A DNA stretch of 64,000 nt. It comes from a bacterium (lineage in GTDB: Bacteria; Patescibacteriota; Microgenomatia; UBA10105; UBA927). The stretch lies in assembly GCA_021817785.1 (NCBI GenBank), contig JAKAFY010000006.1, positions 2,067 to 66,066 of the forward strand. Reading direction: 5' to 3'. Every line of letters starts with the position of its first letter. Within the stretch, counting starts at the first letter, position 1. The translations under genes were made by a program, and so were the position numbers. This document shows positions 1,477 to 13,237 of the stretch, piece after piece. Below the pieces are notes generated by a model. That model made no database searches and had not been told where the DNA came from. It worked only from the letters and a program-made list of their open reading frames with translations.

Positions 1477-3408
1477 TTAACGGATTTTCGCTCCAACTGG
1501 CATCCCGTCTCCGGAAATAAAGAGCGGCTTGGATGTATCCGCACTGTCTACGGCAAGGATCATCCCCTGGCTTTCCTCATCAAGCATTTTCCGGGGCGCC
1601 AGGTTGGTAATAAAGAAAAATTGCTTTCCGTTAAAGTCTTCGGGTGTATATCCAAACCCTCGCACGCCAGTGAATATAATCCTCGGTGTTTCTTCGGCTA
1701 TATCGACGACCAACCGGATGAGTTTTTCACTCCCCTCTTTATTTCGTGCTTCCAAAACTTTTCCCACCCGCACTTCCATTTTGGCAAATTCATCAATACT
1801 AATCGTCATTCTGGCCCGCTTCGCCTCCGCTCCAGCGAGGCGAGCTTGTCCAGAATCAGCCACCTTCGCATGCTTGTGTCCTCCTACTGAGTATTTCGTC
1901 GTCAATCCCACCGCTTCCCGTACGTCACCCATCGTTTTATCTGCCTTTGACATGGCGGCAGTGTATCCGCGCTGGAGTATGCCGCGTACCAATTCTGGAC
2001 TATTTTTCAGTTCTTCGTACGCTTTCCGTGCCGGCGCAAAGTACGTCATCAGGCTTTTAAATAAATAGTCCTTTACCTCAACATCCGACACCTTACCTGC
2101 TACATATGCCTTCTTGAGGGCGTCCACTTTTTTCGGCTCTCCGAAAAATCCAAGATACGTAAACACCATGTTCCCCTCTATATGTCCGGGGTCTGTCGCG
2201 TGCTTTCTCGTCGGATCGGTGTATGTACTGTTCACCTGTTTTCGCAAAACGTCTTCCGATTCAAATATGGAAATGATATTCCCAAGCGATTTACTCATCT
2301 TGCGTTTCCCGTCGGTGCCCAATACTGCCCCGACATCCTCCGGTATCATCGGCTCGGGCAACGTAAATATCTTCTTTTTGTATGTTCTGTTAAACCGCTC
2401 TGCTATGTCGCGCGTAATCTCCACATGCTGCTTCTGATCTTTCCCGACCGGCACAAAATCCGGGTGATACATGAGGATATCTGCCGCCATCAGAATCGGA
2501 TAGTTAAAGAGTCCGAGATTTATGTCGTCTTCCGCGACGTCTTTTTGCAACTTATCTTTGTACGCATGCGCGCGCTTGAGCAGCCCAAGTGGCGTGACAT
2601 TGTTGATGATCGACTGCAATTCCCCATGCAAACCGATATCCGATTGCCGATAAAACACTAATCGATCAAATTCTTCTTTCGACAAAAATCCTTTCAGGAG
2701 GGCGAGCTCATTGAGAATAAGATTCTCGATATTCGTTGCCAGATGCTTTTTGTCCTGAATCGTTGTCAGTCCGTGCATATCCGCGACAAACAGGAAACAT
2801 TCATTGGATTTTGCTATCTGAATAAACTGTTTGACTGCTCCCAAATAATTTCCGATATGCAGCGTCCCGTCCCCGCTTGGGGTGATACCCGATACGATTC
2901 GTTTATCTTTTACGTCTTTAGAGGCGATAACTGTATGAGTCGCGACAACATCACAAAAATCCACAAGATTAACTCCCGGCAATTTCTTTAAGTCGGCTGT
3001 CTTGTAACGAATGGTAACGAGTAGACTTCCAGATCCCGCATTGATATATTCTTTCTCAAATATTTTTTTATCGATGTATGTTGGTACATTCGGAATGTAG
3101 ACACTCGCTGCTCCACTCGGCACACCCGTTATATCAGCAAATTCTTCTTCGTTTGCCATCCGTAATGCAGTTACTCCAAGGTATTTCTTTACCTTCGTAC
3201 TATCTAGCTTTGTGTCTCCCCGTCGGATAATTGCCACAAAGCGATCATCAGCTTTCATGAGCAACGTCGCTGCCGCGTCACCCATACTAAATCCCAAATA
3301 TTTCTGTACCTCTGCGACAGAAATTAATTGCGGGTGTTCAAGCACCTGATGCTCAATTCCAAATTTTATTAACTGGTGAATATAATCCTGAACGGTTTTA
3401 TTATTCAT
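1477..3408 (-). CDS. trpS: Bacterial-type tryptophanyl-tRNA synthetase with an N-terminal YbaK/ProX-like deacylase domain and a C-terminal OB-fold tRNA-binding (Myf/EMAP-like) domain.
   Basis: Core motifs are TPSGDGTLHIGNYLGA (HIGN), YPILMAADIL, VPVGKDQKQHVEITRDIAERFN and KMSKSLGN. The first ~150 aa match the YbaK fold pattern (LLMK..RFVAIIRRGDTKLD..KKYLG..LRMA..EEF..TGVPSGAASV). The last ~100 aa (MEVRVGKVLEA...LIRLVVDI...NLAPRKM..ESQGMILA) match tRNA_bind. Confidence 0.85.
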   Translation of the reverse strand: MNNKTVQDYIHQLIKFGIEHQVLEHPQLISVAEVQKYLGFSMGDAAATLLMKADDRFVAIIRRGDTKLDSTKVKKYLGVTALRMANEEEFADITGVPSGAASVYIPNVPTYIDKKIFEKEYINAGSGSLLVTIRYKTADLKKLPGVNLVDFCDVVATHTVIASKDVKDKRIVSGITPSGDGTLHIGNYLGAVKQFIQIAKSNECFLFVADMHGLTTIQDKKHLATNIENLILNELALLKGFLSKEEFDRLVFYRQSDIGLHGELQSIINNVTPLGLLKRAHAYKDKLQKDVAEDDINLGLFNYPILMAADILMYHPDFVPVGKDQKQHVEITRDIAERFNRTYKKKIFTLPEPMIPEDVGAVLGTDGKRKMSKSLGNIISIFESEDVLRKQVNSTYTDPTRKHATDPGHIEGNMVFTYLGFFGEPKKVDALKKAYVAGKVSDVEVKDYLFKSLMTYFAPARKAYEELKNSPELVRGILQRGYTAAMSKADKTMGDVREAVGLTTKYSVGGHKHAKVADSGQARLAGAEAKRARMTISIDEFAKMEVRVGKVLEARNKEGSEKLIRLVVDIAEETPRIIFTGVRGFGYTPEDFNGKQFFFITNLAPRKMLDEESQGMILAVDSADTSKPLFISGDGMPVGAKIR

Positions 3409-3427
3409 ATGCCTCCTATAATTATAC

Positions 3428-4558
3428 TTAATCCAAATACGATTGTATCGGTCGAGTTAATAAATATACCTCCTTGTCTTGTGCTGCTATTTTTTTCTGC
3501 TGATGAGAGAAAACTACAGAAGTTATACATCGCTTCGCGATTTCCTTTAGTTCCTTCGTCAACAATTCTCCTTTTGTATATCGTGAATACAAATCCTGCA
3601 ACTCGCGGTCGCTTTCTAAGTATGCGCTCAAGAGCGCAAACACCGAACAGGCCTCCGGCACTGCACCGAATTTTCGATGTTCCTCGAGTGAACTGACAGC
3701 ACCCGTAAACGCAGAGGCGATCTTTTTTCCTATCACCTCCGAGGTGTCAGACAAATAAATAGCCGTTTCTGGTTTAGAACCGGACATTTTTTGTTCCGGA
3801 TCTTTAAGACTTGGGAGAAACCGCATGACAAGCTCCGACGGAGGTACCATCCCCATACGTTTTGCCACATCCCGGGCAAGCAAGATATACGGATGCTGAT
3901 CTATGCCAACCGGAATCAGGGTATGTTTCGGTCCGCCAAATTCCGGCAGCTGTGGCATAAGTATTTCTGCAAGCTGCACACACCCTCGATAAAATATCTG
4001 TCCCGGAGTAACAAGTGACTCTTTTCCAAACAGACTTTCCACTTCTGCCATTGAGACATATTTACTCAGCCGCATTGCAAACGGGTACAGCGTTGGGTAT
4101 TCCGTATCTACATAAATATGTGTGCGTTTTGGGTCAAATCCGAAGGCAATAATACTAGGCAATATTTCCTCATACGCTACGCGTTTACTCTCCCCCATCG
4201 TTTGCACTTTACCGTCGATATACGATTCGTCGTTCGTTAGAGGAATATATATTCGTCCCCCTAATTTCTGCAACGACAACAAGAGATCAAATAATATTTG
4301 ATGCCCAAGATGCAGTGTTGATGATGGATTCAATCCCGAAACCACTACGAATTCTTTCTTGTCAGCGATCAATTCCAAAATCGGTTCAAAGTCCAAGTGT
4401 GCGATCACTAAATCACGTTTGAGTTGCCGAAACATAAGATCATCCGGCAGATAAGCCTTAATCCTTCTCATATCAGTCAGACCGTTCTTCACACTTTGAT
4501 CCCGATAATATATTGCCAGCCTTTTTTTGATCGCTATTTTTTCCTGATATTCGTTCAT
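3428..4558 (-). CDS. Second tryptophanyl-tRNA synthetase, archaeal/eukaryotic type.
   Basis: GLNPSSTLHLGH, LTNDESYI, PVGIDQHPYILLARDVAKRMG, KMSGSKPETAIYLSDT and EEHRKFG...YTKGELLTKELKE align motif-for-motif with eukaryotic/archaeal TrpRS (GPSS..HVGH, AIDQDPYF, KMSAS). The start was chosen at MNEYQ, overlapping the stop of the upstream ORF. Confidence 0.8.
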   Translation of the reverse strand: MNEYQEKIAIKKRLAIYYRDQSVKNGLTDMRRIKAYLPDDLMFRQLKRDLVIAHLDFEPILELIADKKEFVVVSGLNPSSTLHLGHQILFDLLLSLQKLGGRIYIPLTNDESYIDGKVQTMGESKRVAYEEILPSIIAFGFDPKRTHIYVDTEYPTLYPFAMRLSKYVSMAEVESLFGKESLVTPGQIFYRGCVQLAEILMPQLPEFGGPKHTLIPVGIDQHPYILLARDVAKRMGMVPPSELVMRFLPSLKDPEQKMSGSKPETAIYLSDTSEVIGKKIASAFTGAVSSLEEHRKFGAVPEACSVFALLSAYLESDRELQDLYSRYTKGELLTKELKEIAKRCITSVVFSHQQKKIAAQDKEVYLLTRPIQSYLD

Positions 4559-5496
4559 ATGCCCTCCAATCCTAGTGGTGTATAGATACACTCACGAAGC
4601 TGACTCAGCGTGTCCTTGGAAATCTTCACACCAAGGAATTCCCGTGCCATTTCTGTAATGGCGTGTATATCTTTCACTGGATGGACGGTGTCCGGGTTTT
4701 CGGATTCAAACGATGTTTCAAGTAATTCCTTTGCCCGTATGAAAGATGTTTCTCCCAGGATGATGCGGAAGTCCTGCAGTTTATTACTCCCCGCCTTGTA
4801 CGGGGTCACCCCGTATTCCTCTATCTCTGGGTGCGTGAGAAAAAATGCGAAATTTTTTCCGAGCGGCTGAGTCGGCGTGAGATATATACTCTTTAATTTT
4901 CCGGGCATAATCTTTTCTCCGGCTTCGTCATAAAATCGCTCCCGTGGGGGTCCGATTTTCATATCAAATAATAATCCGGTCGCGACAGCATCAAGTGCAT
5001 ATCCAAACTTCTTTTTCCGTTCTTCTGCCAACTTATTTGGCAATATGGTTTTAGATAAGAGAGGTTCAATAACCTTTAAATCAACCTTTGCGATTTCGGC
5101 TCGGAGCTTTTTGTATTCATCGGTCATAAATTGTTCACTCATCAAACGAATCTTTATCGGTAATCGGTATACAGCAATGATCTTATTTAATAACTCGATC
5201 CGACTATTTAGTGACGACCTGATGTGCTCCCTCTTTTGAACTGTTGAGTCGTTCATAAACGATGCCGTATCGGCAACCACGACGGTAGCTACTGCTGATA
5301 GTTTTTTCTGAAGATTACTTAACGTAAAGTAATACTTCAGACAATCAATCGGCATACCAAACTCATCGACGGTTTCTCCGTAAAAAAGCCGTATCGGTTT
5401 ATGATTCAATTTAAAATCTCCAAGCGCACCATAGACTCCCCCGCTCTCACGTAGGAAGCGCGCAAATTCGTTCGTTATGACTTTTTGCCTTTTCAT
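4555..5496 (-). CDS. Hypothetical protein, possibly a catalytically degenerate class I (TyrRS/TrpRS-like) aminoacyl-tRNA synthetase paralog.
   Basis: A 313-aa ORF translationally coupled to the euk-type trpS. Its layout resembles the archaeal TyrRS Rossmann core (..VATVVVADTASFMND.. against ..IIILLADLHAYLN..). It has PIDC where HIGH would be and KIMPGK where KMSKS would be. The call is by eye only. Confidence 0.35.
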   Translation of the reverse strand: MKRQKVITNEFARFLRESGGVYGALGDFKLNHKPIRLFYGETVDEFGMPIDCLKYYFTLSNLQKKLSAVATVVVADTASFMNDSTVQKREHIRSSLNSRIELLNKIIAVYRLPIKIRLMSEQFMTDEYKKLRAEIAKVDLKVIEPLLSKTILPNKLAEERKKKFGYALDAVATGLLFDMKIGPPRERFYDEAGEKIMPGKLKSIYLTPTQPLGKNFAFFLTHPEIEEYGVTPYKAGSNKLQDFRIILGETSFIRAKELLETSFESENPDTVHPVKDIHAITEMAREFLGVKISKDTLSQLRECIYTPLGLEGI

Positions 5497-5547
5497 ACCT
5501 CCTTCTTTCTATGAACTATTTACTGGCCATTCTACGAACTAACTCTG

Positions 5548-5618
5548 TGGGATCACTAGGATTTGAACCTAGACTAAGTGTTCTGGAAACACTTGTGCTA
5601 CCGTTACACCATGAACCC
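5548..5618 (-). tRNA. tRNA-Trp (anticodon CCA).
   Basis: The reverse complement folds as a cloverleaf with acceptor GGGTTCA/TGATCCC (one U-U mismatch), anticodon loop TTCCAGA and T-arm CTAGG-TTCAAAT-CCTAG. CCA is not encoded. Confidence 0.7.
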
Positions 5619-6124
5619 AAGGTATTAACTTTTTCCTAAAAATCTCTCCAATATTGACCGCTCTCTTCCACATGGCATCATGTTTCTCTGGCCCTTCGTC
5701 AACCTGCTTGCGACCGGACATGTCTCTTGTATTCGACACAGTTGTACCAATGCTTTCTGAGCTACGACTATCCTTGGCTTCCCAAGCCTGGCATGTTCAG
5801 GTTGGGCGGCTAAAGACCTGATCCGTACATCAGCACACACTCCCACATCCTGCGATATCCCGGCAGCTAGCTTGCGACACTTATCTGTTTCCATTCTCGT
5901 TTGCGTCATATAAATATTGAATACACAACCATCAAAAAAGCCCTTGCACATCCCCAAGAGCCTCTTGTTCTGATGTTTTAAAACATCAAAACAAAACTCT
6001 TTAGAAATCTGCAAGGGCCTTTATTAGCGTTGTTATTCGCGCGTATTCACCTTTCTGTGAACCGTGAACCAATAACTATGAACTAATGAAGGGGTACCAC
6101 CCTTTCTTTGTTGTTCCGCCCACT

Positions 6125-6144
6125 AAAAAACTCCCTTTCGGGAG
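6125..6144 (-). terminator. Candidate intrinsic terminator, active on the minus strand.
   Basis: The minus strand reads CTCCC-GAAA-GGGAG followed by TTTTTT. Confidence 0.4.
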
Positions 6145-6402
6145 TCTGTCACTACTGAGGCGGAAAAACCTCATTATTGACATACTCCGACCTCGTCCAC
6201 CGTAGCTTATGCGAAGGTGGATTCGCGACATATGTTGACAGTCTTTTTACGGTTTCACCTCCGGATAAGACATTCTTTCGATAGCCCTATCAGCGTTTAG
6301 CTCTCGCTAATTGAGGAAATCCCAATCAATCCCCTCACCGCTTGTATTCACTTGTGAGGATATAGTATAGCACACCTGTCAAAATCACAACATATTTTGC
6401 CT

Positions 6403-6451: not shown

Positions 6452-6521
6452 CGCGGGGTAGTGTAAAGTCGCACAGGAGGCTCATAATCTCCTAGGCCGG
6501 GTGCGATTCCCGGCCCCGCAA
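6452..6521 (+). tRNA. tRNA-Met (anticodon CAT), with an initiator-like C1:A72 mismatch.
   Basis: Acceptor CGCGGGG/CCCCGCA, anticodon arm GGAGG-CTCATAA-TCTCC and T-arm CCGGG-TGCGATT-CCCGG. Confidence 0.7.
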
Positions 6522-6533
6522 CAGATAGTAAAT

Positions 6534-6559
6534 AGCGCCTATACAGGCGCTATTTTTTT
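6534..6559 (+). terminator. Intrinsic terminator after the tRNA-Met gene.
   Basis: AGCGCC-tataca-GGCGCT followed by ATTTTTTT. Confidence 0.55.
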
Positions 6560-7410
6560 ATCGATTCCAGCCATGATATGAGATACGTTCCGGTGCGCGC
6601 GCCAGGCCGCAGCCGAAGCAGGGTAAACCGATAATCCGGCGATTGTATGATCCCCGGCCGAGTCGTGGTAGCGGTCCGAAATCCTGCGGCAGATACGGCA
6701 ATTACCGCAGCCGAATCATAGGATCCATACGGATACGCAAAATCAATCACCGGTTTTCCGATCAGATGTTCTAATTGCGTTTTGCTTCCGTAAATTTCCG
6801 CGTGCAAAAGTTGCGGTGATATTCCTTTGAGACTCACATGGTGCACGGTGTGGGCTGCCACTTCCACTAGCCCGCTGGATGCGATATCCATCACTTCCTG
6901 TTTTGTCATATAGTTTGGTTTATCTAAAAATCCTGGTACCACGTAGGACGTTGCTTTCACATGATATTTTTGCAATATCGGGTAGGCATCCGTATAAAAA
7001 TCCCGATATCCGTCATCAAACGTAAAAACGATCGGCTTATCGGGCAATGTCCCTTTTCCGTCCAGATATGCCGCCAGATCACTCATAAATATCGGGGTAT
7101 ACCCATGAGACAGAAAGGTGGCAATTTGTGCATCCATCGTTTTCGGCAAAATATCCAGCCCTTCACGGATGGTGTCTTTCGGGTCTTTCACGATTTCCAC
7201 ATAGTGATACATCAGTATTGGCACGCGCACAGGCTGTACAAGCACGGGGCGCGCGGTGGGTGTGGGAATTGGGCGTTCTGTCGGGCGTATGAAAAGATAC
7301 GGAAGATGCAAAATGGTTCTGCCGCTTTTCGGCATCGTTACGATGCTCCACGTTCCTATCCCAAAACAGATACAAAGTATCACAATGCCCGCTGTTAATT
7401 TGGTATTCAT
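6550..7410 (-). CDS. Polysaccharide deacetylase (NodB homology domain, CE4), membrane-anchored.
   Basis: TFDDGYRD, HTVHH and an N-terminal TM segment. Confidence 0.85.
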   Translation of the reverse strand: MNTKLTAGIVILCICFGIGTWSIVTMPKSGRTILHLPYLFIRPTERPIPTPTARPVLVQPVRVPILMYHYVEIVKDPKDTIREGLDILPKTMDAQIATFLSHGYTPIFMSDLAAYLDGKGTLPDKPIVFTFDDGYRDFYTDAYPILQKYHVKATSYVVPGFLDKPNYMTKQEVMDIASSGLVEVAAHTVHHVSLKGISPQLLHAEIYGSKTQLEHLIGKPVIDFAYPYGSYDSAAVIAVSAAGFRTATTTRPGIIQSPDYRFTLLRLRPGARTGTYLISWLESIKK

Positions 7411-7515
7411 AGAGCAGATTATACCGTATCCTCACGCTTCCTGCGTTGCCTTTTCCTGGGTATTTTCGTAAAATGAAGCCTACAGCCCACCTTCGCTAAA
7501 GCTTCGGCGGGCAAT

Positions 7516-7587
7516 GCCAGCGTAGCTCAGTGGTAGAGCAGTGTCTTCATAAGGCATTTGTCGCAAGTCCGATCCTTGCCGCTGGCA
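7516..7587 (+). tRNA. tRNA with anticodon CAT (elongator Met or Ile2/lysidine type).
   Basis: GCCAGCG-TA-GCTCAGTGGTAGAGC, anticodon arm GTGTC-TTCATAA-GGCAT (two G-U pairs), T-arm GCAAG-TCCGATC-CTTGC and acceptor 3' strand CGCTGGC-A. Confidence 0.7.
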
Positions 7588-7637
7588 CCCGATCCCCTAC
7601 CGGTATTCGCATACCAAAAGCGTGTCCACATGGACGT

Positions 7638-10597: not shown

Positions 10598-10604
10598 TAA
10601 TTTT

Positions 10605-10785
10605 TGCTATACTCGTTTTAGAAAAGCGCTTGAGTCTTGCCAGTCACAAGACAAGCTTTCAGCTGAACCCAAAGTAAGCTGAACGGGAGAGTCCGTAACT
10701 ACTCACACAAGAAGCAAGTAAGGTGGTACCACCCAGACTTTCGCGAAAAGCTGGGTCCTTATATAAAACGGTACCTTTTTTTGTG
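10605..10785 (+). promoter_or_regulatory. Possible T-box riboswitch leader upstream of valS.
   Basis: AAGTAAGGTGGTACCACCC (10714-10733) matches the T-box consensus AATTAGGGTGGTACCGCGG at 14 of 19 positions, including the UGGN acceptor-pairing core. It is followed by a hairpin ACCCAG..CTGGGT and GGTACC + TTTTTTT (10771-10782). Upstream there are two GCUGA (K-turn-like) motifs. Confidence 0.35.
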
Positions 10786-10942
10786 GTTAAATAGCTTTAT
10801 GCCAGGTAGGAGAATTTCGACACGCTTTCGTTCATTGCGCGACGAATAGACTTCCTGGATGTTAATATAATGTTGTTATAGAAATAACGCTGAAATTTTC
10901 CAAAGCGCAAAAAACGCAATGGTCGAAATTTCACTACCTGGT

Positions 10943-13237
10943 ATGGATAAAAATTACGATCCGAAATTGACCGAGGAAGCTATCTACCGAATGTGGGAAA
11001 CCGGCGGATATTTTACCCCAACAATAGATCCCCAAAAAAAGCCGTTTACTATTTTATTGCCATTGCCCAATGCCAATGACCCGATGCACATGGGGCACGC
11101 CATGTTTACCGTGCAGGATATTTTAATCCGATATCACCGCATGATGGGAGACCCCACGCTTTGGCTTCCGGGCGGTGACCATGCAGGTATCGAAACGCAA
11201 TATGTTTTTGAAAAGAAATTAGCAAAAGAAGGCAAAAGCCGGTTTCAGTTCGATCGCGATACGCTCTACAACATGATTGCCGACTACGTCGAGCAAAATA
11301 AAAATATCAACCGCGATCAAATGAAGCGCCTGGGCTTTTCCATGGATTGGACACGATACCGCTACTCGCTGGACCCAAACATCGTTGCAACTGTTTTAGA
11401 CACATTCAAAACTATGTACAACGATGGCCTTGCCTATCGCGATGCCCGACTCGTCAATTATTGTACGAAAGACGGCACGGGATTTTCAGATCTGGAAGTA
11501 AAGTATGACGAACGCATAGACCCGTTATACTACATGAAATACGGACCGTTTACGATCGCTACGGTTCGCCCCGAAACCAAATTCCGCGATACAGCATTGG
11601 CCGTCAACCCGAAAGACAAACGATACAAAAAATACATCGGGCAAACGCTCGAAATCATGGGACTGTTGGGACCTATCCAGATGACCGTGATTCCGGATCA
11701 GGAAGTGGATCCCAAATTCGGTACGGGGATAATGAAAGTCACTCCGGCGCATGATCCGCATGATTTCGAACTTGGCAAAAAATTTAATTTACCCGTTACT
11801 CCGATTATCGACCAACGCGGAAAAATGGATTTTTCATGGTTCCTCTCACAAAACAATATAGAACCGAAATACAAAGAACGAGCAGAAAAATATCACGGAA
11901 AAAAGGTGGCAGAAGCACGCGCACTCATGGTAGAAGATCTCAAAGCGGATGGGCTATTGGTAAAAGTTGATGAACAATACACGCATCGGGTCGGAATGTG
12001 TTATCGCTGCGGCTCAGTCCTTGAACCCCTCCCTATCCCCCAGTGGTATATCAAAACAAAACCGTTAGCCAAAAAAGCTATCGAGGCAGTCAAAAAAGGG
12101 AAAACAAAAATATTCCCCAAAAAACGGTTTGAAAAAATGTATTTCGACTGGATGAACAATATTCTGGATTGGAATATCAGCCGCCAGATTGTGTGGGGAC
12201 CGCGAATTCCTATCTGGTACTGTCTGGATTGTAATCCTGATATTGCCCTTTCATTTTTAAATGCAGAACATGTGAAAATGTTTGGTACATATAAAGATTT
12301 TGCTTCTACGCATTCTTTTGACGAAATAAAACATGGCATCCAAACGCTTTCCGCACCTTTGAAAGCGACATACGCATTAACCGATGGAGCGTGTACGACA
12401 TGTGGCGGCACCCACATCCTACAGGAAACCGATACGTTTGATACCTGGTTTCTTTCCAGCCAATGGCCAATTACGACACTCGGGTTTCCGGATAGCAAAG
12501 ACTTTAACTATTTCTACCCAACATCAGTCCTCGACACTATGTGGGACATTCTTTTTTTCTGGGTGGCCCGGATGATGATGATGGGACTCTACAGGACCGG
12601 AAAAGTACCGTTTGAGGTCGTGCATCTCCATAGCCGCGTCGTGGACGCACATGGCAAAAAAATGGCCAAAAGCAAAGGCAACGTTATAAACCCCATTGAT
12701 ATGGTCGGCAAATACGGCGCGGATGCCCTCCGGTTTGCACTTATGTTCGGTGCCGCTCCGGGCAGCGATATTGCAATATCAGAAGACAAAATCAGAGGTA
12801 TGAGAAACTTTGCAAATAAACTATGGAATATCGGCCGGTTTATTCACATGAATATTGACGCCGCAAAGGCTGAAATTCCGTTCTATGACGATACACGCCT
12901 CCAGACAGTGATTGACGCCAACGATAAACAGATCATTTCCGAACTAAATACGCTGGCTGTCTCTGTGACGAAGAATATAAACCACTACCGATTTTCCGAC
13001 GCCGCCCAGTCGCTCTACGAATTTACCTGGCATCAGTTCGCTGATGTGTATCTCGAGAAAAATAAAGACCGGTTCAAAGCCGGGGACGCGCAGGCACTTT
13101 CTGTCCTGCGGCATGTATACATTATACTTTTAAAGCTCATCCATCCGTTTATGCCGTTTGTCACGGAAAGCATATGGGGCACATTTCCGCGGAAACACGC
13201 GGATCCGCTCATTATCTCTCATTGGCCTACAGTTTGA
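10943..13237 (+). CDS. valS: Valyl-tRNA synthetase (short form without the C-terminal coiled coil).
   Basis: MDKNYDP..EEAIYRMWE matches the ValRS N-terminus. Motifs PNANDPMHMGHA (HIGH-type), KMAKSKGN and the WYIKTKPLAKKA region are present. The ORF track begins at 10919, but MDK fits ValRS alignments better. Confidence 0.85.
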   Translation: MDKNYDPKLTEEAIYRMWETGGYFTPTIDPQKKPFTILLPLPNANDPMHMGHAMFTVQDILIRYHRMMGDPTLWLPGGDHAGIETQYVFEKKLAKEGKSRFQFDRDTLYNMIADYVEQNKNINRDQMKRLGFSMDWTRYRYSLDPNIVATVLDTFKTMYNDGLAYRDARLVNYCTKDGTGFSDLEVKYDERIDPLYYMKYGPFTIATVRPETKFRDTALAVNPKDKRYKKYIGQTLEIMGLLGPIQMTVIPDQEVDPKFGTGIMKVTPAHDPHDFELGKKFNLPVTPIIDQRGKMDFSWFLSQNNIEPKYKERAEKYHGKKVAEARALMVEDLKADGLLVKVDEQYTHRVGMCYRCGSVLEPLPIPQWYIKTKPLAKKAIEAVKKGKTKIFPKKRFEKMYFDWMNNILDWNISRQIVWGPRIPIWYCLDCNPDIALSFLNAEHVKMFGTYKDFASTHSFDEIKHGIQTLSAPLKATYALTDGACTTCGGTHILQETDTFDTWFLSSQWPITTLGFPDSKDFNYFYPTSVLDTMWDILFFWVARMMMMGLYRTGKVPFEVVHLHSRVVDAHGKKMAKSKGNVINPIDMVGKYGADALRFALMFGAAPGSDIAISEDKIRGMRNFANKLWNIGRFIHMNIDAAKAEIPFYDDTRLQTVIDANDKQIISELNTLAVSVTKNINHYRFSDAAQSLYEFTWHQFADVYLEKNKDRFKAGDAQALSVLRHVYIILLKLIHPFMPFVTESIWGTFPRKHADPLIISHWPTV

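What the first reader, a model, noticed from the sequence alone, without database searches (positions are those of the whole stretch)
1477..5618. Tryptophan-specific translation island: two TrpRS genes of different evolutionary type, an aaRS-like ORF and tRNA-Trp in one minus-strand array
Four consecutive minus-strand genes are all tied to tRNA-Trp. First is a bacterial-type TrpRS with unusual appended domains (1477-3408). Second is a eukaryotic/archaeal-type TrpRS (3428-4558, with GxxPSS..HLGH, AIDQ.PY and KMSGS motifs). Third is a 313-aa ORF that looks like a degenerate class I synthetase core (4555-5496), joined to the second TrpRS by an overlapping stop/start. Fourth is tRNA-Trp(CCA) at 5548-5618. 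Duplicate TrpRS genes are known mainly from antibiotic-producing actinomycetes, where the second copy is an indolmycin- or chuangxinmycin-resistant TrpRS. A bacterial plus archaeal-type pair in a tight array with its cognate tRNA is not a standard arrangement. It could reflect division of labour, antibiotic immunity or a regulatory role.
Basis: partly seen in the sequence, partly recalled or inferred. Interest (0 to 1): 0.75.

Follow-up and report, generated by a model that had tools for sequence, protein, structure and literature searches.

The report
T-box-controlled dual tryptophan-charging operon
This candidate-phyla-radiation (CPR) bacterium carries an already described but functionally unsolved gene array, with an archaeal-style tRNA-Trp, a dead synthetase look-alike, an archaeal-type and a bacterial-type tryptophanyl-tRNA synthetase; here it is shown to sit behind a tRNA-sensing T-box riboswitch.

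Summary
On the minus strand lie tRNA-Trp(CCA) 5548-5618, a 313-aa ORF, an archaeal-type TrpRS and a bacterial-type TrpRS carrying YbaK-like and Trbp111-like domains.

It is not new as a kind. Mukai et al. 2017 (PMC5370408) described this operon in Microgenomates (CPR): tRNA-Trp(A73)-ORF1-TrpRS-A1, followed by a bacterial TrpRS. The window is a further member (58% identity to their Beckwithbacteria TrpRS-A).

What I add:
- An unannotated T-box leader (6372-5934) with a UGG specifier in an ultrashort Stem I. Its UGGU bulge fits the A73 discriminator. Antiterminator and terminator both covary across relatives.
- ORF1 is always adjacent to TrpRS-A, is fused to it in three lineages, and co-evolves with it (r 0.89).
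- The YbaK-like domain lacks the catalytic lysine.
- All three proteins are Trp-free.

Most likely this is a Trp-tRNA-starvation-induced operon encoding two mutually orthogonal Trp-charging systems. The reason for having two is unresolved.

The parts
5934..6372 (-). T-box leader RNA, running from a promoter-like extended -10 (TGcTATACT, 6372-6364) to the terminator U-run (5939-5934)
   Evidence: The 5' domain aligns to relatives' leaders: L006 72% over 203 nt (E 9e-20), L065 94% over 54 nt, and L007 1580-1687. That L007 stretch lies inside an Rfam T-box hit, L007 1583-1861, 33.8 bits, E 4e-4. Rfam gives no hit on the window itself.
6313..6336 (-). Ultrashort Stem I hairpin GAGGGGA-UUGAUUGGGA-UUUCCUC, with the Trp codon UGG (6324-6322) followed by a purine in the terminal loop (proposed specifier)
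   Evidence: The same loop, UUGAUUGGGA or GGUUGGAA, is found in about 20 relatives. In the Rfam alignment of L022, 74 Stem I positions of the model are replaced by 8 nt. The window's ValRS T-box has GUC followed by A in the equivalent loop.
6243..6264 (-). CCGGAGGUGAAACCGUAAAAAG: conserved Stem IIA/B and F-box-like element
   Evidence: Nearly invariant across 11 aligned leaders. It aligns to the T-box model's 'CGguuau..uucCGUUA' region in L022.
6125..6145 (-). Stem III hairpin ACUCCC-GAAA-GGGAGU followed by a U run
   Evidence: A GC hairpin with a U run is present at this position in the relatives.
6091..6106 (-). T-box sequence GAAAGGGUGGUACCCC. It holds the 5' strand of antiterminator helix A1 (AAGGG) and the 7-nt bulge UGGUACC. 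UGGU (6099-6096) is complementary to the ACCA 3' end of a tRNA with discriminator A73.
   Evidence: The isolated segment 6106-6010 folds as A1, a 7-nt bulge and an extended A2 helix, -26.1 kcal/mol. Across 11 relatives the antiterminator is 92.9% paired, 7 of 9 pairs show compensatory changes, and the covariation score is 0.52 against 0.27 in shuffles (0 of 500 reach it).
5934..6019 (-). Intrinsic terminator: a long hairpin GGCCCUUGCA...UGCAAGGGC plus UUUUUU. Its 5' strand overlaps the 3' strand of the antiterminator.
   Evidence: RNAfold gives -46.9 kcal/mol. Across the relatives it is 96% paired, with covariation 0.50 against 0.24 in shuffles (0 of 500 reach it). It shares alignment columns 310-316 with the antiterminator.
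5619..5933 (-). Lineage-specific spacer between the T-box terminator and the tRNA. It contains a 94-aa ORF of doubtful reality.
   Evidence: No homologue in any fetched locus. No promoter-like or terminator-like site on the minus strand. In L063, L065, L019 and L022-L024 the terminator lies directly upstream of the tRNA, within about 25 nt in L063 and L065.
5548..5618 (-). tRNA-Trp(CCA) with archaeal/eukaryotic identity elements G1-C72 and A73. It has a U4-U69 mismatch and no encoded CCA.
   Evidence: Rfam tRNA 61.8 bits, with alignment. The identity rules are as summarised in PMC5370408.
4555..5496 (-). ORF1: a 313-aa, Trp-free pseudo class Ic synthetase, proposed partner subunit of TrpRS-A
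3428..4558 (-). TrpRS-A1: archaeal-type tryptophanyl-tRNA synthetase, 376 aa, Trp-free, with HLGH, GIDQ and KMSGS intact
   Evidence: It is 58% identical to the Ca. Beckwithbacteria RBG_13_42_9 TrpRS, the reference TrpRS-A of Mukai 2017.
1477..3408 (-). Bacterial-type TrpRS, 643 aa, Trp-free, with HIGN and KMSKS intact. It starts 19 nt after TrpRS-A and has its own AGGAGG ribosome-binding site.
   Evidence: 3m5w E 1.4e-63.
2980..3336 (-). N-terminal INS/YbaK-like domain of the bacterial TrpRS (aa 25-143), lacking the family's invariant catalytic Lys ('AATLL' in place of 'KT/SL')
   Evidence: Pfam PF04073, 77.7 bits. Alignments to ProRS 5znj, ProX 1wdv and TTHA1699 2cx5. The Lys is absent from all 19 TrpRS-fused copies with an alignable N-terminus.
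1492..1773 (-). C-terminal Trbp111/EMAP-II-like tRNA-binding domain of the bacterial TrpRS (aa 546-639)
   Evidence: Pfam PF01588, 63.7 bits. PDB matches: MetRS C-terminal domain and Trbp111 1pyb at E 2e-17.

Best explanation
The region is a single regulated operon of a Microgenomates-group (CPR/Patescibacteria) bacterium, and it holds two complete tryptophan-charging systems.

Regulation. A T-box riboswitch (6372-5934) reads tRNA-Trp through a UGG specifier in an ultrashort Stem I. It checks the free 3' end through the bulge UGGU, which fits discriminator A73. When tRNA-Trp is uncharged, the antiterminator forms instead of the -47 kcal/mol terminator. Transcription then continues into tRNA-Trp(A73), ORF1, TrpRS-A1 and the bacterial-type TrpRS.

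First system. TrpRS-A1 has an intact catalytic site. It is inferred to charge the co-encoded archaeal-identity tRNA-Trp (G1-C72, A73). It is inferred to work as a complex with ORF1, a class Ic paralogue that has lost the ATP-binding signatures and is taken here to occupy the place of one partner subunit.

Second system. The bacterial-type TrpRS is inferred to serve a bacterial-identity tRNA-Trp (A1-U72, G73). It carries a non-catalytic YbaK-like domain and a Trbp111-like domain, probably as extra tRNA handles. Relatives encode the G73 tRNA inside the array; this genome would have to encode it elsewhere.

All three proteins avoid Trp, so the operon can be translated exactly when Trp-tRNA is scarce.

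Shown here: gene identities, tRNA identity elements, T-box architecture with covariation, the predicted ORF1 fold, ORF1/TrpRS-A linkage, fusion and co-evolution, loss of the YbaK Lys, and Trp avoidance.

Inferred: which enzyme charges which tRNA, the physical ORF1-TrpRS-A complex, read-through across the 320-nt spacer, and the selective reason for keeping two systems. My preferred reason is securing Trp-tRNA supply in a Trp-scavenging symbiont.
For: Identity with the published module:
- tRNA-Trp(A73)-ORF1-TrpRS-A1, then a bacterial TrpRS.
- 58% identity to the reference Beckwithbacteria TrpRS-A.

Conserved gene order:
- 57 loci were retrieved with the ORF1 profile.
- Of 36 bacterial loci, 34 have ORF1 next to TrpRS-A (31 of them overlapping or within 10 nt) and 1 has the two genes fused.
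- 27 of 32 loci with enough upstream sequence have tRNA-Trp immediately 5' of ORF1.
- 22 have a bacterial TrpRS nearby, 19 of them with the YbaK-like domain.

ORF1-TrpRS-A partnership:
- Single-polypeptide fusions in L008 (778 aa), L058 and L060.
- ORF1 and TrpRS-A distance matrices correlate at r 0.89 over 48 loci (permutation p <= 0.0005).
- In the 21 loci that also have a bacterial TrpRS, r is 0.92, against 0.53 and 0.49 for that enzyme.
- The fused protein models with pTM 0.81.

ORF1 fold.

T-box:
- Rfam RF00230 hits three relatives' leaders at E 4e-4 to 2e-3, and L022 at E 2e-5 in a targeted search.
- Both alternative helices covary.
- The window's own antiterminator and terminator fold as expected.
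- The window leader is homologous to those leaders.
- The ValRS T-box in the same window has a GUC codon in the equivalent loop.

Two tRNA types in relatives: L005, L022, L025 and L064 carry a second tRNA-Trp with A1-U72 and G73 in the same locus. It lies directly upstream of the bacterial TrpRS in L005 and L025. In L064 a TrpB-like gene intervenes, and the L022 contig ends before any bacterial TrpRS.

Trp avoidance:
- 0 Trp in 1332 residues here, against 1.48% in other window ORFs.
- Family-wide 0.06-0.10% against 1.03%.

Trp-supply context: TrpB-like genes are inserted in the array in L064, L017, L059 and L025. Sister lineages replace the T-box with tandem-Trp leader peptides plus a terminator.
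Against: - No biochemical data exist for any component.
- Rfam's T-box model does not hit the window leader. Relatives score 31-34 bits, against a gathering score of 93.
- A 320-nt unexplained spacer separates the terminator from the tRNA.
- No G73 tRNA-Trp is present in the 64-kb window, so the bacterial TrpRS has no demonstrated substrate here.
- Five relatives have UGGC, which would pair G73, upstream of an A73 tRNA.
- TrpRS-A lacks the equivalents of human TrpRS Tyr159 and Gln194, as I place those residues from memory of the human sequence. A. pernix TrpRS lacks them too.
Confidence: 0.6

Rival explanations
1. Antibiotic bypass. The archaeal-type TrpRS-A, ORF1 and tRNA(A73) set is an inhibitor-insensitive backup. 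It is switched on when the bacterial TrpRS is poisoned by indolmycin-like or chuangxinmycin-like compounds from neighbouring organisms. This would be analogous to the auxiliary TrpRS1 of Streptomyces coelicolor.
For: - Control by sensors of uncharged tRNA-Trp is what an inducible resistance copy would need: a T-box here, and tandem-Trp leader peptides in relatives.
- S. coelicolor trpRS1 is controlled by ribosome-mediated attenuation (Vecchione & Sello 2010, cited in PMC4787780).
- Five leaders carry UGGC, which would sense the bacterial G73 tRNA rather than the downstream A73 tRNA.
- From general knowledge, archaeal and eukaryotic-type TrpRS are poorly inhibited by indolmycin.
Against: - The bacterial TrpRS sits in the same T-box operon (19-nt gap), so both enzymes are induced together.
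- The same ORF1/TrpRS-A pair occurs in DPANN archaea. There, per Mukai et al., the resident TrpRS is already archaeal-type.
- No biosynthetic or resistance context lies nearby.
- This idea does not explain ORF1.
Confidence: 0.15
2. Non-translational use. Trp-tRNA(A73) is a dedicated substrate pool, and ORF1 is an aminoacyl-tRNA-dependent transferase. It would resemble cyclodipeptide synthases, which are also HIGH/KMSKS-less class Ic derivatives.
For: - It keeps its own invariant residues, among them Y39, E41, D44, D76, N82, K180, R185, E186, Y233, K234 and R244. That suggests a conserved pocket rather than a pure scaffold.
- A separate orthogonal tRNA would insulate such a pathway from translation.
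Against: - No tailoring or export genes are linked.
- The linked genes are TrpB-like enzymes and TrpRS, pointing to supply and charging.
- Mukai et al. reached the same view.
Confidence: 0.07
3. Altered specificity. TrpRS-A with ORF1 loads tRNA(A73, anticodon CCA) with a Trp analogue or another amino acid, giving conditional ambiguous decoding of UGG.
For: - TrpRS-A has Val and Pro where human TrpRS has the indole-binding Tyr159 and Gln194 (alignment; residue roles and numbering from general knowledge).
- ORF1 may contribute to or gate the pocket.
- The module's own proteins avoid UGG codons entirely.
Against: - A. pernix TrpRS shows the same two substitutions, to Leu and Ala. It is the closest solved relative and was crystallised as a TrpRS.
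- The HIGH, GIDQ and KMSKS motifs and Glu199 are conserved.
- A UGG-specifier T-box and linked TrpB-like genes argue for Trp itself.
Confidence: 0.05
4. Artefact: a chimeric assembly, or DPANN archaeal DNA binned with a bacterial genome.
For: CPR and DPANN organisms co-occur, and bins are sometimes cross-contaminated (noted in PMC5370408).
Against: - The identical array is on 13 contigs of up to 287 kb from independent assemblies.
- It is flanked by bacterial genes, including FtsH, a 5'-3' exonuclease-domain gene and ValRS with a T-box.
- It lies between a bacterial-style T-box leader and a bacterial TrpRS.
- The same order is found in 30 or more bacterial species.
Confidence: 0.01

Closest known systems
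TrpRS-A1 / ORF1 / tRNA-Trp(A73) operon of CPR Microgenomates (Mukai, Reynolds, Crnkovic & Soll 2017, Life 7:8, PMC5370408)
   Same: Same gene order (tRNA-Trp with G1-C72 and A73, ORF1, overlapping TrpRS-A1, then a bacterial-type TrpRS 'fused with small proteins'). Same Trp-free composition and same phylum-level host. 58% identity to their reference enzyme.
   Different: - That paper reports no T-box or leader.
- It knew of 12 TrpRS-A genes. Here 57 species-level loci were found, including ORF1-TrpRS-A fusions and TrpB-like insertions.
T-box riboswitches (Rfam RF00230). Closest variants: Bacillus subtilis trpS T-box (same specifier logic) and actinobacterial ileS T-boxes with ultrashort Stem I
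   Same: UGG specifier. Conserved T-box sequence with a UGGN bulge whose N matches the discriminator. Mutually exclusive antiterminator and terminator. F-box-like and Stem III elements. Control of an aaRS gene.
   Different: - Stem I is reduced to a hairpin with the codon in the terminal loop, yet the expression platform is an intrinsic terminator. According to the review PMC7583486, transcriptional T-boxes generally need a long Stem I, and ultrashort ones are typically translational.
- The first regulated gene is the ligand tRNA itself.
- The element scores far below Rfam's gathering threshold.
Double-length pseudo-dimeric TyrRS of Leishmania (PDB 3p0h, 3p0j)
   Same: One catalytically competent and one degenerate class Ic module act together. 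Here ORF1 and TrpRS-A are separate but translationally coupled, and they form one chain in L008, L058 and L060.
   Different: - The order is reversed (degenerate half first), and the amino acid is Trp rather than Tyr.
- The AlphaFold model of the fusion does not superpose on the Leishmania pseudo-dimer (TM 0.27-0.33).
- ORF1 is unrecognisable by sequence.
Auxiliary, indolmycin-resistant TrpRS1 of Streptomyces coelicolor (Kitabatake 2002; Vecchione & Sello 2010)
   Same: A second TrpRS is induced when charged tRNA-Trp falls. Sister CPR lineages even use tandem-Trp leader-peptide attenuators.
   Different: - The Streptomyces copy is a bacterial-type paralogue that uses the same tRNA.
- Here the second enzyme is archaeal-type, has its own orthogonal tRNA and a pseudo-synthetase partner, and is co-induced with the bacterial enzyme.
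INS/YbaK/ProX superfamily of aminoacyl-tRNA deacylases
   Same: Clear Pfam PF04073 domain (77.7 bits). Alignable to the ProRS INS domain and to ProX structures.
   Different: Fused to TrpRS, an enzyme with no known editing need. The invariant Lys (ProRS K279, YbaK K46) is replaced in every fused copy. Some relatives carry two tandem copies.

Membership tests
TrpRS-A1/ORF1 operon (Mukai 2017) | Archaeal/eukaryotic-type TrpRS belonging to the TrpRS-A clade | tested here: met
   58% identity over 99% of its length to the Ca. Beckwithbacteria RBG_13_42_9 TrpRS. Best PDB hits are archaeal and eukaryotic TrpRS. No formal tree was built.
TrpRS-A1/ORF1 operon (Mukai 2017) | ORF1 gene immediately upstream of TrpRS-A and co-evolving with it | tested here: met
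   ATGA overlap at 4555-4558. ORF1 family membership. Distance-matrix correlation r 0.89.
TrpRS-A1/ORF1 operon (Mukai 2017) | tRNA-Trp with G1-C72 and A73 heading the operon | tested here: met
   Rfam tRNA alignment at 5618-5548.
TrpRS-A1/ORF1 operon (Mukai 2017) | Followed by a bacterial-type TrpRS; all proteins lack Trp | tested here: met
T-box riboswitch | T-box sequence forming an antiterminator with a UGGN bulge, mutually exclusive with a terminator | tested here: met
   Window fold. Covariation of both helices in 11 relatives.
T-box riboswitch | Specifier codon matching the regulated amino acid | tested here: met
   UGG followed by a purine in the Stem I loop, here and in about 20 relatives. 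GUC followed by A in the ValRS leader of the same window. The position is inferred, not mapped.
T-box riboswitch | UGGN base complementary to the tRNA discriminator | tested here: met
   UGGU with A73 in the window and 12 relatives. However, 5 relatives have UGGC with an A73 tRNA downstream.
T-box riboswitch | Score at or above the Rfam RF00230 gathering threshold (93 bits) | tested here: not met
   No hit in the window. Relatives score 31-34 bits.
T-box riboswitch | Long Stem I with a distal tRNA-elbow platform | tested here: not met
   74 model positions are replaced by 8 nt in L022. The window hairpin is 24 nt.
T-box riboswitch | tRNA-dependent antitermination | not testable with these tools
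   Needs in vitro transcription with charged and uncharged tRNA-Trp.
Class Ic aminoacyl-tRNA synthetase (for ORF1) | Rossmann catalytic fold with class Ic architecture | tested here: met
Class Ic aminoacyl-tRNA synthetase (for ORF1) | HIGH and KMSKS signature motifs; Pfam PF00579 | tested here: not met
   No Pfam or NCBIfam hit. No HIGH or KMSKS string occurs in the family consensus, which instead has invariant YGExxDxxG and TxYKAxS. Profile-profile probability against TrpRS-A is below 1%.
INS/YbaK editing domain | Domain fold and family membership | tested here: met
   PF04073, 77.7 bits against a cutoff of 25.5.
INS/YbaK editing domain | Invariant catalytic or substrate-binding Lys | tested here: not met
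   Ala in the window. A, S, G, T or V in all 19 TrpRS-fused copies with an alignable N-terminus.
Pseudo-dimeric class Ic synthetase (Leishmania TyrRS type) | Active and degenerate modules packed like a canonical class Ic dimer | tested here: inconclusive
Antibiotic-resistant auxiliary TrpRS (Streptomyces type) | Inhibitor-insensitive enzyme induced by the inhibitor | not testable with these tools
   Needs enzyme assays. The only shared feature is control by a sensor of tRNA-Trp charging.

The most novel reading that the evidence does not exclude
One bacterial cell runs two naturally orthogonal UGG-decoding channels. One is an archaeal-identity tRNA-Trp(A73) charged by a heteromeric enzyme made of TrpRS-A and a pseudo-synthetase. 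The other is a bacterial tRNA-Trp(G73) charged by a YbaK*-TrpRS-Trbp111 enzyme. T-box leaders would tell the two tRNA pools apart through the single discriminator-pairing base (UGGU or UGGC), so each pool's charging state can be sensed and cross-wired separately. ORF1 would not be a mere scaffold. It would act as a ligand-sensing or specificity-setting subunit, possibly changing what is loaded on the A73 tRNA.
Probability: 0.2. Interest if true: 0.85.

Novelty: new member of a known kind. Interest (0 to 1): 0.55.

Why it matters
**Evolution of tRNA identity.** The module is one of the very few natural cases where archaeal and bacterial tRNA identity rules for the same amino acid appear to coexist in one genome. 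That bears on how tRNA identity sets evolved.

**Synthetic biology.** It offers ready-made orthogonal TrpRS/tRNA pairs for genetic-code engineering.

**New testable handles from this work:**
- The system is wired to a sensor of tRNA-Trp charging.
- The T-box combines an ultrashort Stem I with a transcription terminator. This contradicts the current generalisation that transcriptional T-boxes need the long Stem I.
- ORF1 is a full class Ic fold that behaves genetically as an obligate partner of TrpRS-A.

**Limit.** The existence of the array itself is not new.

Tried and rejected
- **Rfam on the window leader.** Searches with the evalue threshold, on a 12-kb stretch and on a 961-nt stretch, gave no T-box hit. 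They returned only spurious microRNA-like hits to the long terminator hairpin. The T-box was recognised only through relatives.
- **Sequence homology of ORF1.** Nothing was found against PDB with a single sequence or with a profile. Nothing was found against a TrpRS-A profile with hhalign in global or local mode.
- **Trp-codon leader peptide in the window.** Clear tandem-Trp peptides exist in the Shapirobacteria-like clade. The window has only chance-level short ORFs, so this was rejected for the window.
- **Spacer 5619-5933.** No homologue by blastn or tblastx in any fetched locus.
- **First alignment for the fused protein (A2).** MAFFT placed the ORF1 rows onto the TrpRS half, so it was discarded. 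A smaller balanced set (A5) aligned correctly.
- **Pseudo-dimer geometry.** The test against Leishmania TyrRS was not met.
- **Altered amino-acid pocket in TrpRS-A.** This was considered. The same substitutions occur in A. pernix TrpRS, so it is kept only as a low-probability rival.
- **Literature.** No papers were found on T-boxes in Patescibacteria or on YbaK-TrpRS fusions.
- **Covariance model.** Building one for the leader was not pursued. The full alignment (379 columns, about 250 consensus positions) seemed likely to exceed the calibration time limit, and blastn homology plus covariation counts already answered the question.

Full report
**Observation.**
- tRNA-Trp(CCA) lies at 5548-5618 (ARAGORN, and Rfam at 61.8 bits).
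- A 313-aa ORF lies at 4555-5496.
- A 376-aa ORF at 3428-4558 has its ATG overlapping the preceding stop as ATGA.
- A 643-aa ORF at 1477-3408 starts 19 nt further on, behind an AGGAGG ribosome-binding site.

**The 643-aa protein.** It is a bacterial-type TrpRS. NCBIfam TIGR00233 scores 269 bits against a cutoff of 177, and PDB 3m5w matches at E 1.4e-63. It has an N-terminal INS/YbaK-like domain (PF04073, 1e-21) and a C-terminal Trbp111-like tRNA-binding domain (PF01588, 1.8e-17).

**The 376-aa protein.** It is an archaeal/eukaryotic-type TrpRS. PRK12285 models score about 268 bits. The A. pernix, Cryptosporidium and P. horikoshii TrpRS match at E 4e-52 to 4e-49, while TyrRS reaches only 1.5e-9. 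HLGH, GIDQHPY and KMSGS are intact.

**The 313-aa protein.** It has no Pfam, NCBIfam or PDB sequence match.

**Assembly.** The same array is on 13 contigs of up to 287 kb from independent assemblies, so mis-assembly is excluded.

**Already described.** A literature search led to Mukai, Reynolds, Crnkovic & Soll 2017 (PMC5370408).
- TrpRS-A1 belongs to a clade shared with DPANN archaea.
- They noted that all three proteins lack Trp, and they left the function open.

The window fits on every count.
- Its tRNA has G1-C72 and discriminator A73, the archaeal/eukaryotic identity set.
- Its TrpRS is 58% identical to their reference Beckwithbacteria enzyme.
- Its 313-aa ORF belongs to the ORF1 family.
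- There is no Trp in 1332 residues, against 1.48% in other window ORFs.

The finding is therefore a new member of a known kind. No later paper using the TrpRS-A name is in the library.

**Wider survey.** A profile scan of one genome per species returned 57 loci in CPR bacteria and DPANN archaea. I mapped their genes and tRNAs.
- Of 36 bacterial loci, 34 have ORF1 next to TrpRS-A and 1 has the two genes fused. Of the 34, 31 overlap or lie within 10 nt.
- 27 of 32 loci with enough upstream sequence have tRNA-Trp (G1-C72, A73) immediately 5' of ORF1.
- 22 have a bacterial TrpRS nearby, 19 of them with the YbaK-like domain.
- Three lineages encode ORF1 and TrpRS-A as one polypeptide: L008 at 778 aa, and two Micrarchaeota at 698 and 731 aa.
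- ORF1 and TrpRS-A distance matrices correlate at r 0.89 over 48 loci (p <= 0.0005).
- In the 21 loci that also have a bacterial TrpRS, r is 0.92, against about 0.5 for either protein versus that enzyme.
- The ORF1 family is rare: 155 clusters among 1.84 billion representative proteins.
- Trp avoidance is family-wide in bacteria, at 0.06-0.10% against a background of 1.03%.
- Relatives L005, L022, L025 and L064 carry a second tRNA-Trp with bacterial identity (A1-U72, G73) in the same locus. It lies directly upstream of the bacterial TrpRS in L005 and L025; in L064 a TrpB-like gene lies between them.
- L064, L017, L059 and L025 have a TrpB-like PLP enzyme inside or next to the array. The L064 copy scores 690 bits on NF009057.
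- The window itself has neither a G73 tRNA-Trp nor a TrpB-like gene.

**ORF1.** AlphaFold with 46 homologues gives pLDDT 92 and pTM 0.90.
- ORF1 is therefore predicted as a complete class Ic synthetase fold. This corrects the 2017 SWISS-MODEL impression that the Rossmann fold is missing.
- It is beyond sequence recognition: hhalign probability against a TrpRS-A profile is below 1%.
- The family's invariant motifs are YGExxDxxG, KxGPPRE and TxYKAxS. By my own reading they sit where HIGH, GxDQ and KMSKS would be.
- ORF1 thus looks like a pseudo-synthetase for adenylation that keeps its own invariant residues.

**The leader.** About 800 nt upstream of the tRNA have no convincing gene. Rfam finds no T-box there, yet the sequence contains GGGUGGUACC. 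Close relatives fetched through ORF1 homologues (L063, L064, L065) and the survey loci show a conserved leader. Its elements, in order, are:
- a short hairpin whose loop carries UGG followed by a purine;
- a nearly invariant CGGAGGCGAAACCGUAAAAG element;
- an ACGAGUGUCG...CGGAGCUCGU element;
- a GC hairpin;
- the T-box sequence AAGGUGGNACC;
- a strong terminator lying directly upstream of the tRNA in compact leaders (within about 25 nt in L063 and L065).

Support for calling this a T-box:
- Rfam's T-box model hits three of these leaders full length at 31-34 bits (E 4e-4 to 2e-3, and 2e-5 in a targeted search). In the L022 alignment, 74 Stem I positions are replaced by 8 nt.
- On an 11-leader alignment the antiterminator is 92.9% paired, and 7 of 9 pairs show compensatory change. 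Its covariation score is 0.52 against 0.27 in shuffles, with 0 of 500 shuffles reaching it.
- The terminator is 96% paired, with covariation 0.50 against 0.24 in shuffles.
- The two structures share one strand.

In the window the elements lie at:
- Stem I and specifier, 6336-6313 (UGG at 6324-6322);
- the IIA/B-like element, 6264-6243;
- Stem III, 6145-6125;
- the T-box sequence, 6106-6091 (UGGU at 6099-6096);
- the terminator, 6019-5934 (-46.9 kcal/mol).

The isolated antiterminator segment folds as helix A1, the 7-nt bulge UGGUACC and an extended A2 helix. The window leader aligns to those of L006, L065 and L007, and the L007 match lies inside the Rfam hit. The ValRS gene in the same window (10919-13237) has the same design, with the Val codon GUC followed by A in the hairpin loop. 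That serves as an internal control for the specifier assignment.

The U of UGGU pairs with A73. According to the review PMC7583486, transcriptional T-boxes generally need the long Stem I, and ultrashort Stem I is typical of translational ones. This CPR design, ultrashort Stem I with an intrinsic terminator, is a variant worth noting. Mukai et al. mention no T-box or leader.

**Other regulatory observations.** A Shapirobacteria-like clade lacks the T-box. It has instead a conserved 22-24-codon leader ORF with tandem Trp codons followed by a terminator directly upstream of the tRNA. Examples are MKLNISTIWWRESS... and MLSKIISQIWWWNN.... A related leader ORF, with two separated Trp codons, precedes the G73 tRNA in L005. 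Orthologous operons thus use two different sensors of Trp-tRNA charging.

**YbaK-like domain.** Alignments to ProRS INS (5znj), ProX (1wdv) and TTHA1699 (2cx5) show that the invariant Lys of the superfamily is Ala here. It is A, S, G, T or V in all 19 TrpRS-fused copies with an alignable N-terminus. Three relatives carry two tandem copies. The domain is probably not a conventional deacylase. I infer a tRNA-handling role, alongside the C-terminal Trbp111-like domain.

**Mechanism proposed.**
- Uncharged tRNA-Trp stabilises the T-box antiterminator.
- Transcription then reads into tRNA-Trp(A73), ORF1, TrpRS-A1 and the bacterial TrpRS.
- TrpRS-A, complexed with ORF1, charges the A73 tRNA.
- The bacterial enzyme charges a G73 tRNA encoded elsewhere in the genome.
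- Trp-free proteins allow the response to be translated during Trp-tRNA shortage.
- A plausible history is that the archaeal module was inserted into a pre-existing T-box-controlled trpS operon.

Weak points:
- No biochemistry exists for any component.
- A 320-nt spacer of unknown content separates the terminator from the tRNA.
- No G73 tRNA lies in the window.
- Five relatives have UGGC, which fits G73, upstream of an A73 tRNA. This hints at either tolerance of the mismatch or cross-sensing.

**Rivals.**
- Antibiotic bypass is compatible with the regulation. It is hard to reconcile with co-induction of the bacterial enzyme or with the presence of the pair in archaea.
- A tRNA-dependent transferase role for ORF1 rests only on a weaker structural similarity to cyclodipeptide synthases.
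- Altered amino-acid specificity rests on substitutions that A. pernix TrpRS shares.
- Assembly artefact is excluded.

**Verdict.** The finding is real and correctly read at the gene level, but it is already known as a kind. The value added here is the T-box (and, in relatives, leader-peptide) control, the fold and obligate-partner status of ORF1, the inactive editing-like domain, and a much larger comparative set. Interest is moderate, at 0.55. The biological reason for two orthogonal Trp systems plus a pseudo-synthetase in a minimal genome remains an open and testable question.

Noticed in passing
window 10600-10790 (+), upstream of ValRS 10919-13237: A second T-box of the same unusual design. 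It has an ultrashort Stem I hairpin GUCUUG-CCAGUCA-CAAGAC with the Val codon GUC in the loop, the T-box sequence AAGGUGGUACCACC, and a U-run terminator. Rfam scores it at only 36 bits against a gathering score of 93.
   Followed up: partly
L004 5732-5800, L005 5786-5860 and 8120-8195, L012, L013, L009, L010 (upstream of tRNA-Trp): Conserved 22-24-codon leader ORFs with tandem Trp codons (for example MKLNISTIWWRESSPSAGDINLS), each followed by an intrinsic terminator, replace the T-box in a Shapirobacteria-like clade. The copy before the G73 tRNA in L005 has two separated Trp codons. This looks like classical ribosome-mediated attenuation in front of a tRNA-Trp/TrpRS operon.
   Followed up: partly
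L008 7881-10217; L058 7902-9998; L060 7875-10070: ORF1 and TrpRS-A are encoded as one polypeptide (778, 698 and 731 aa) in one bacterial and two Micrarchaeota lineages. The AlphaFold model of the L008 protein has pTM 0.81 but a domain arrangement unlike the Leishmania pseudo-dimeric TyrRS.
   Followed up: yes
L064 3009-4280; L017 9043-10266; L059 1912-2268; L025 10408-11442: TrpB-like PLP enzyme genes lie within or next to the array in several relatives. The L064 copy scores 690 bits on NCBIfam NF009057. This ties the module to tryptophan supply, possibly indole salvage. No such gene is in the window.
   Followed up: partly
L008 7514, L011 7767, L017 6469, L020 7718, L045 7693: These T-box leaders have UGGC, which would pair a G73 discriminator, although the tRNA-Trp immediately downstream has A73. 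In L025 a UGGC T-box precedes a G73 tRNA and the bacterial TrpRS. The explanation could be cross-sensing of the bacterial tRNA pool or a relic of the ancestral trpS leader.
   Followed up: no
L014 12077-14452, L017 10353-12335, L021 10419-12761: The bacterial TrpRS carries two tandem YbaK-like domains (proteins of 660-791 aa). In every copy that could be aligned, the catalytic Lys is missing.
   Followed up: partly
window 5548-5618 (-): The tRNA-Trp acceptor stem has a U4-U69 mismatch. The loci whose tRNA has the same acceptor-stem ends (5'-GGGUUCA ... UGAUCCCA-3': L006, L014, L016, L019, L021, L051, L063-L065) should share it; the alignment confirms it for L063. The anticodon loop is UUCCAGA, with G37.
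   Followed up: no
window 5619-5933 (-): A 320-nt spacer lies between the T-box terminator and the tRNA. It contains a 94-aa ORF (ATG at about 5907) and has no homologue in any fetched locus. Other relatives have unrelated insertions at the same place: an 81-aa membrane ORF in L064 and a Cys-rich short ORF in L006 and L007.
   Followed up: partly
L029, L032, L035, L037, L039, L041-L043, L046, L050, L053 and other archaeal-type loci: Many DPANN-type loci carry a second, more divergent pair directly upstream of the ORF1/TrpRS-A pair: a TrpRS-A-like protein (about 450-500 aa) and an ORF1-like protein. This matches Mukai's 'TrpRS-A-like' genes.
   Followed up: no
L007 23-213 (+); L024 205-462 (-): Rfam group I intron hits just above the gathering threshold (53.5 and 51 bits against 50) lie close to the module in two relatives.
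   Followed up: no
window 6452-6522 (+) and 7515-7590 (+): Two tRNA-Met(CAT) genes flank a polysaccharide deacetylase gene (6550-7410, minus strand). The first lies just upstream of the promoter region of the Trp operon.
   Followed up: no
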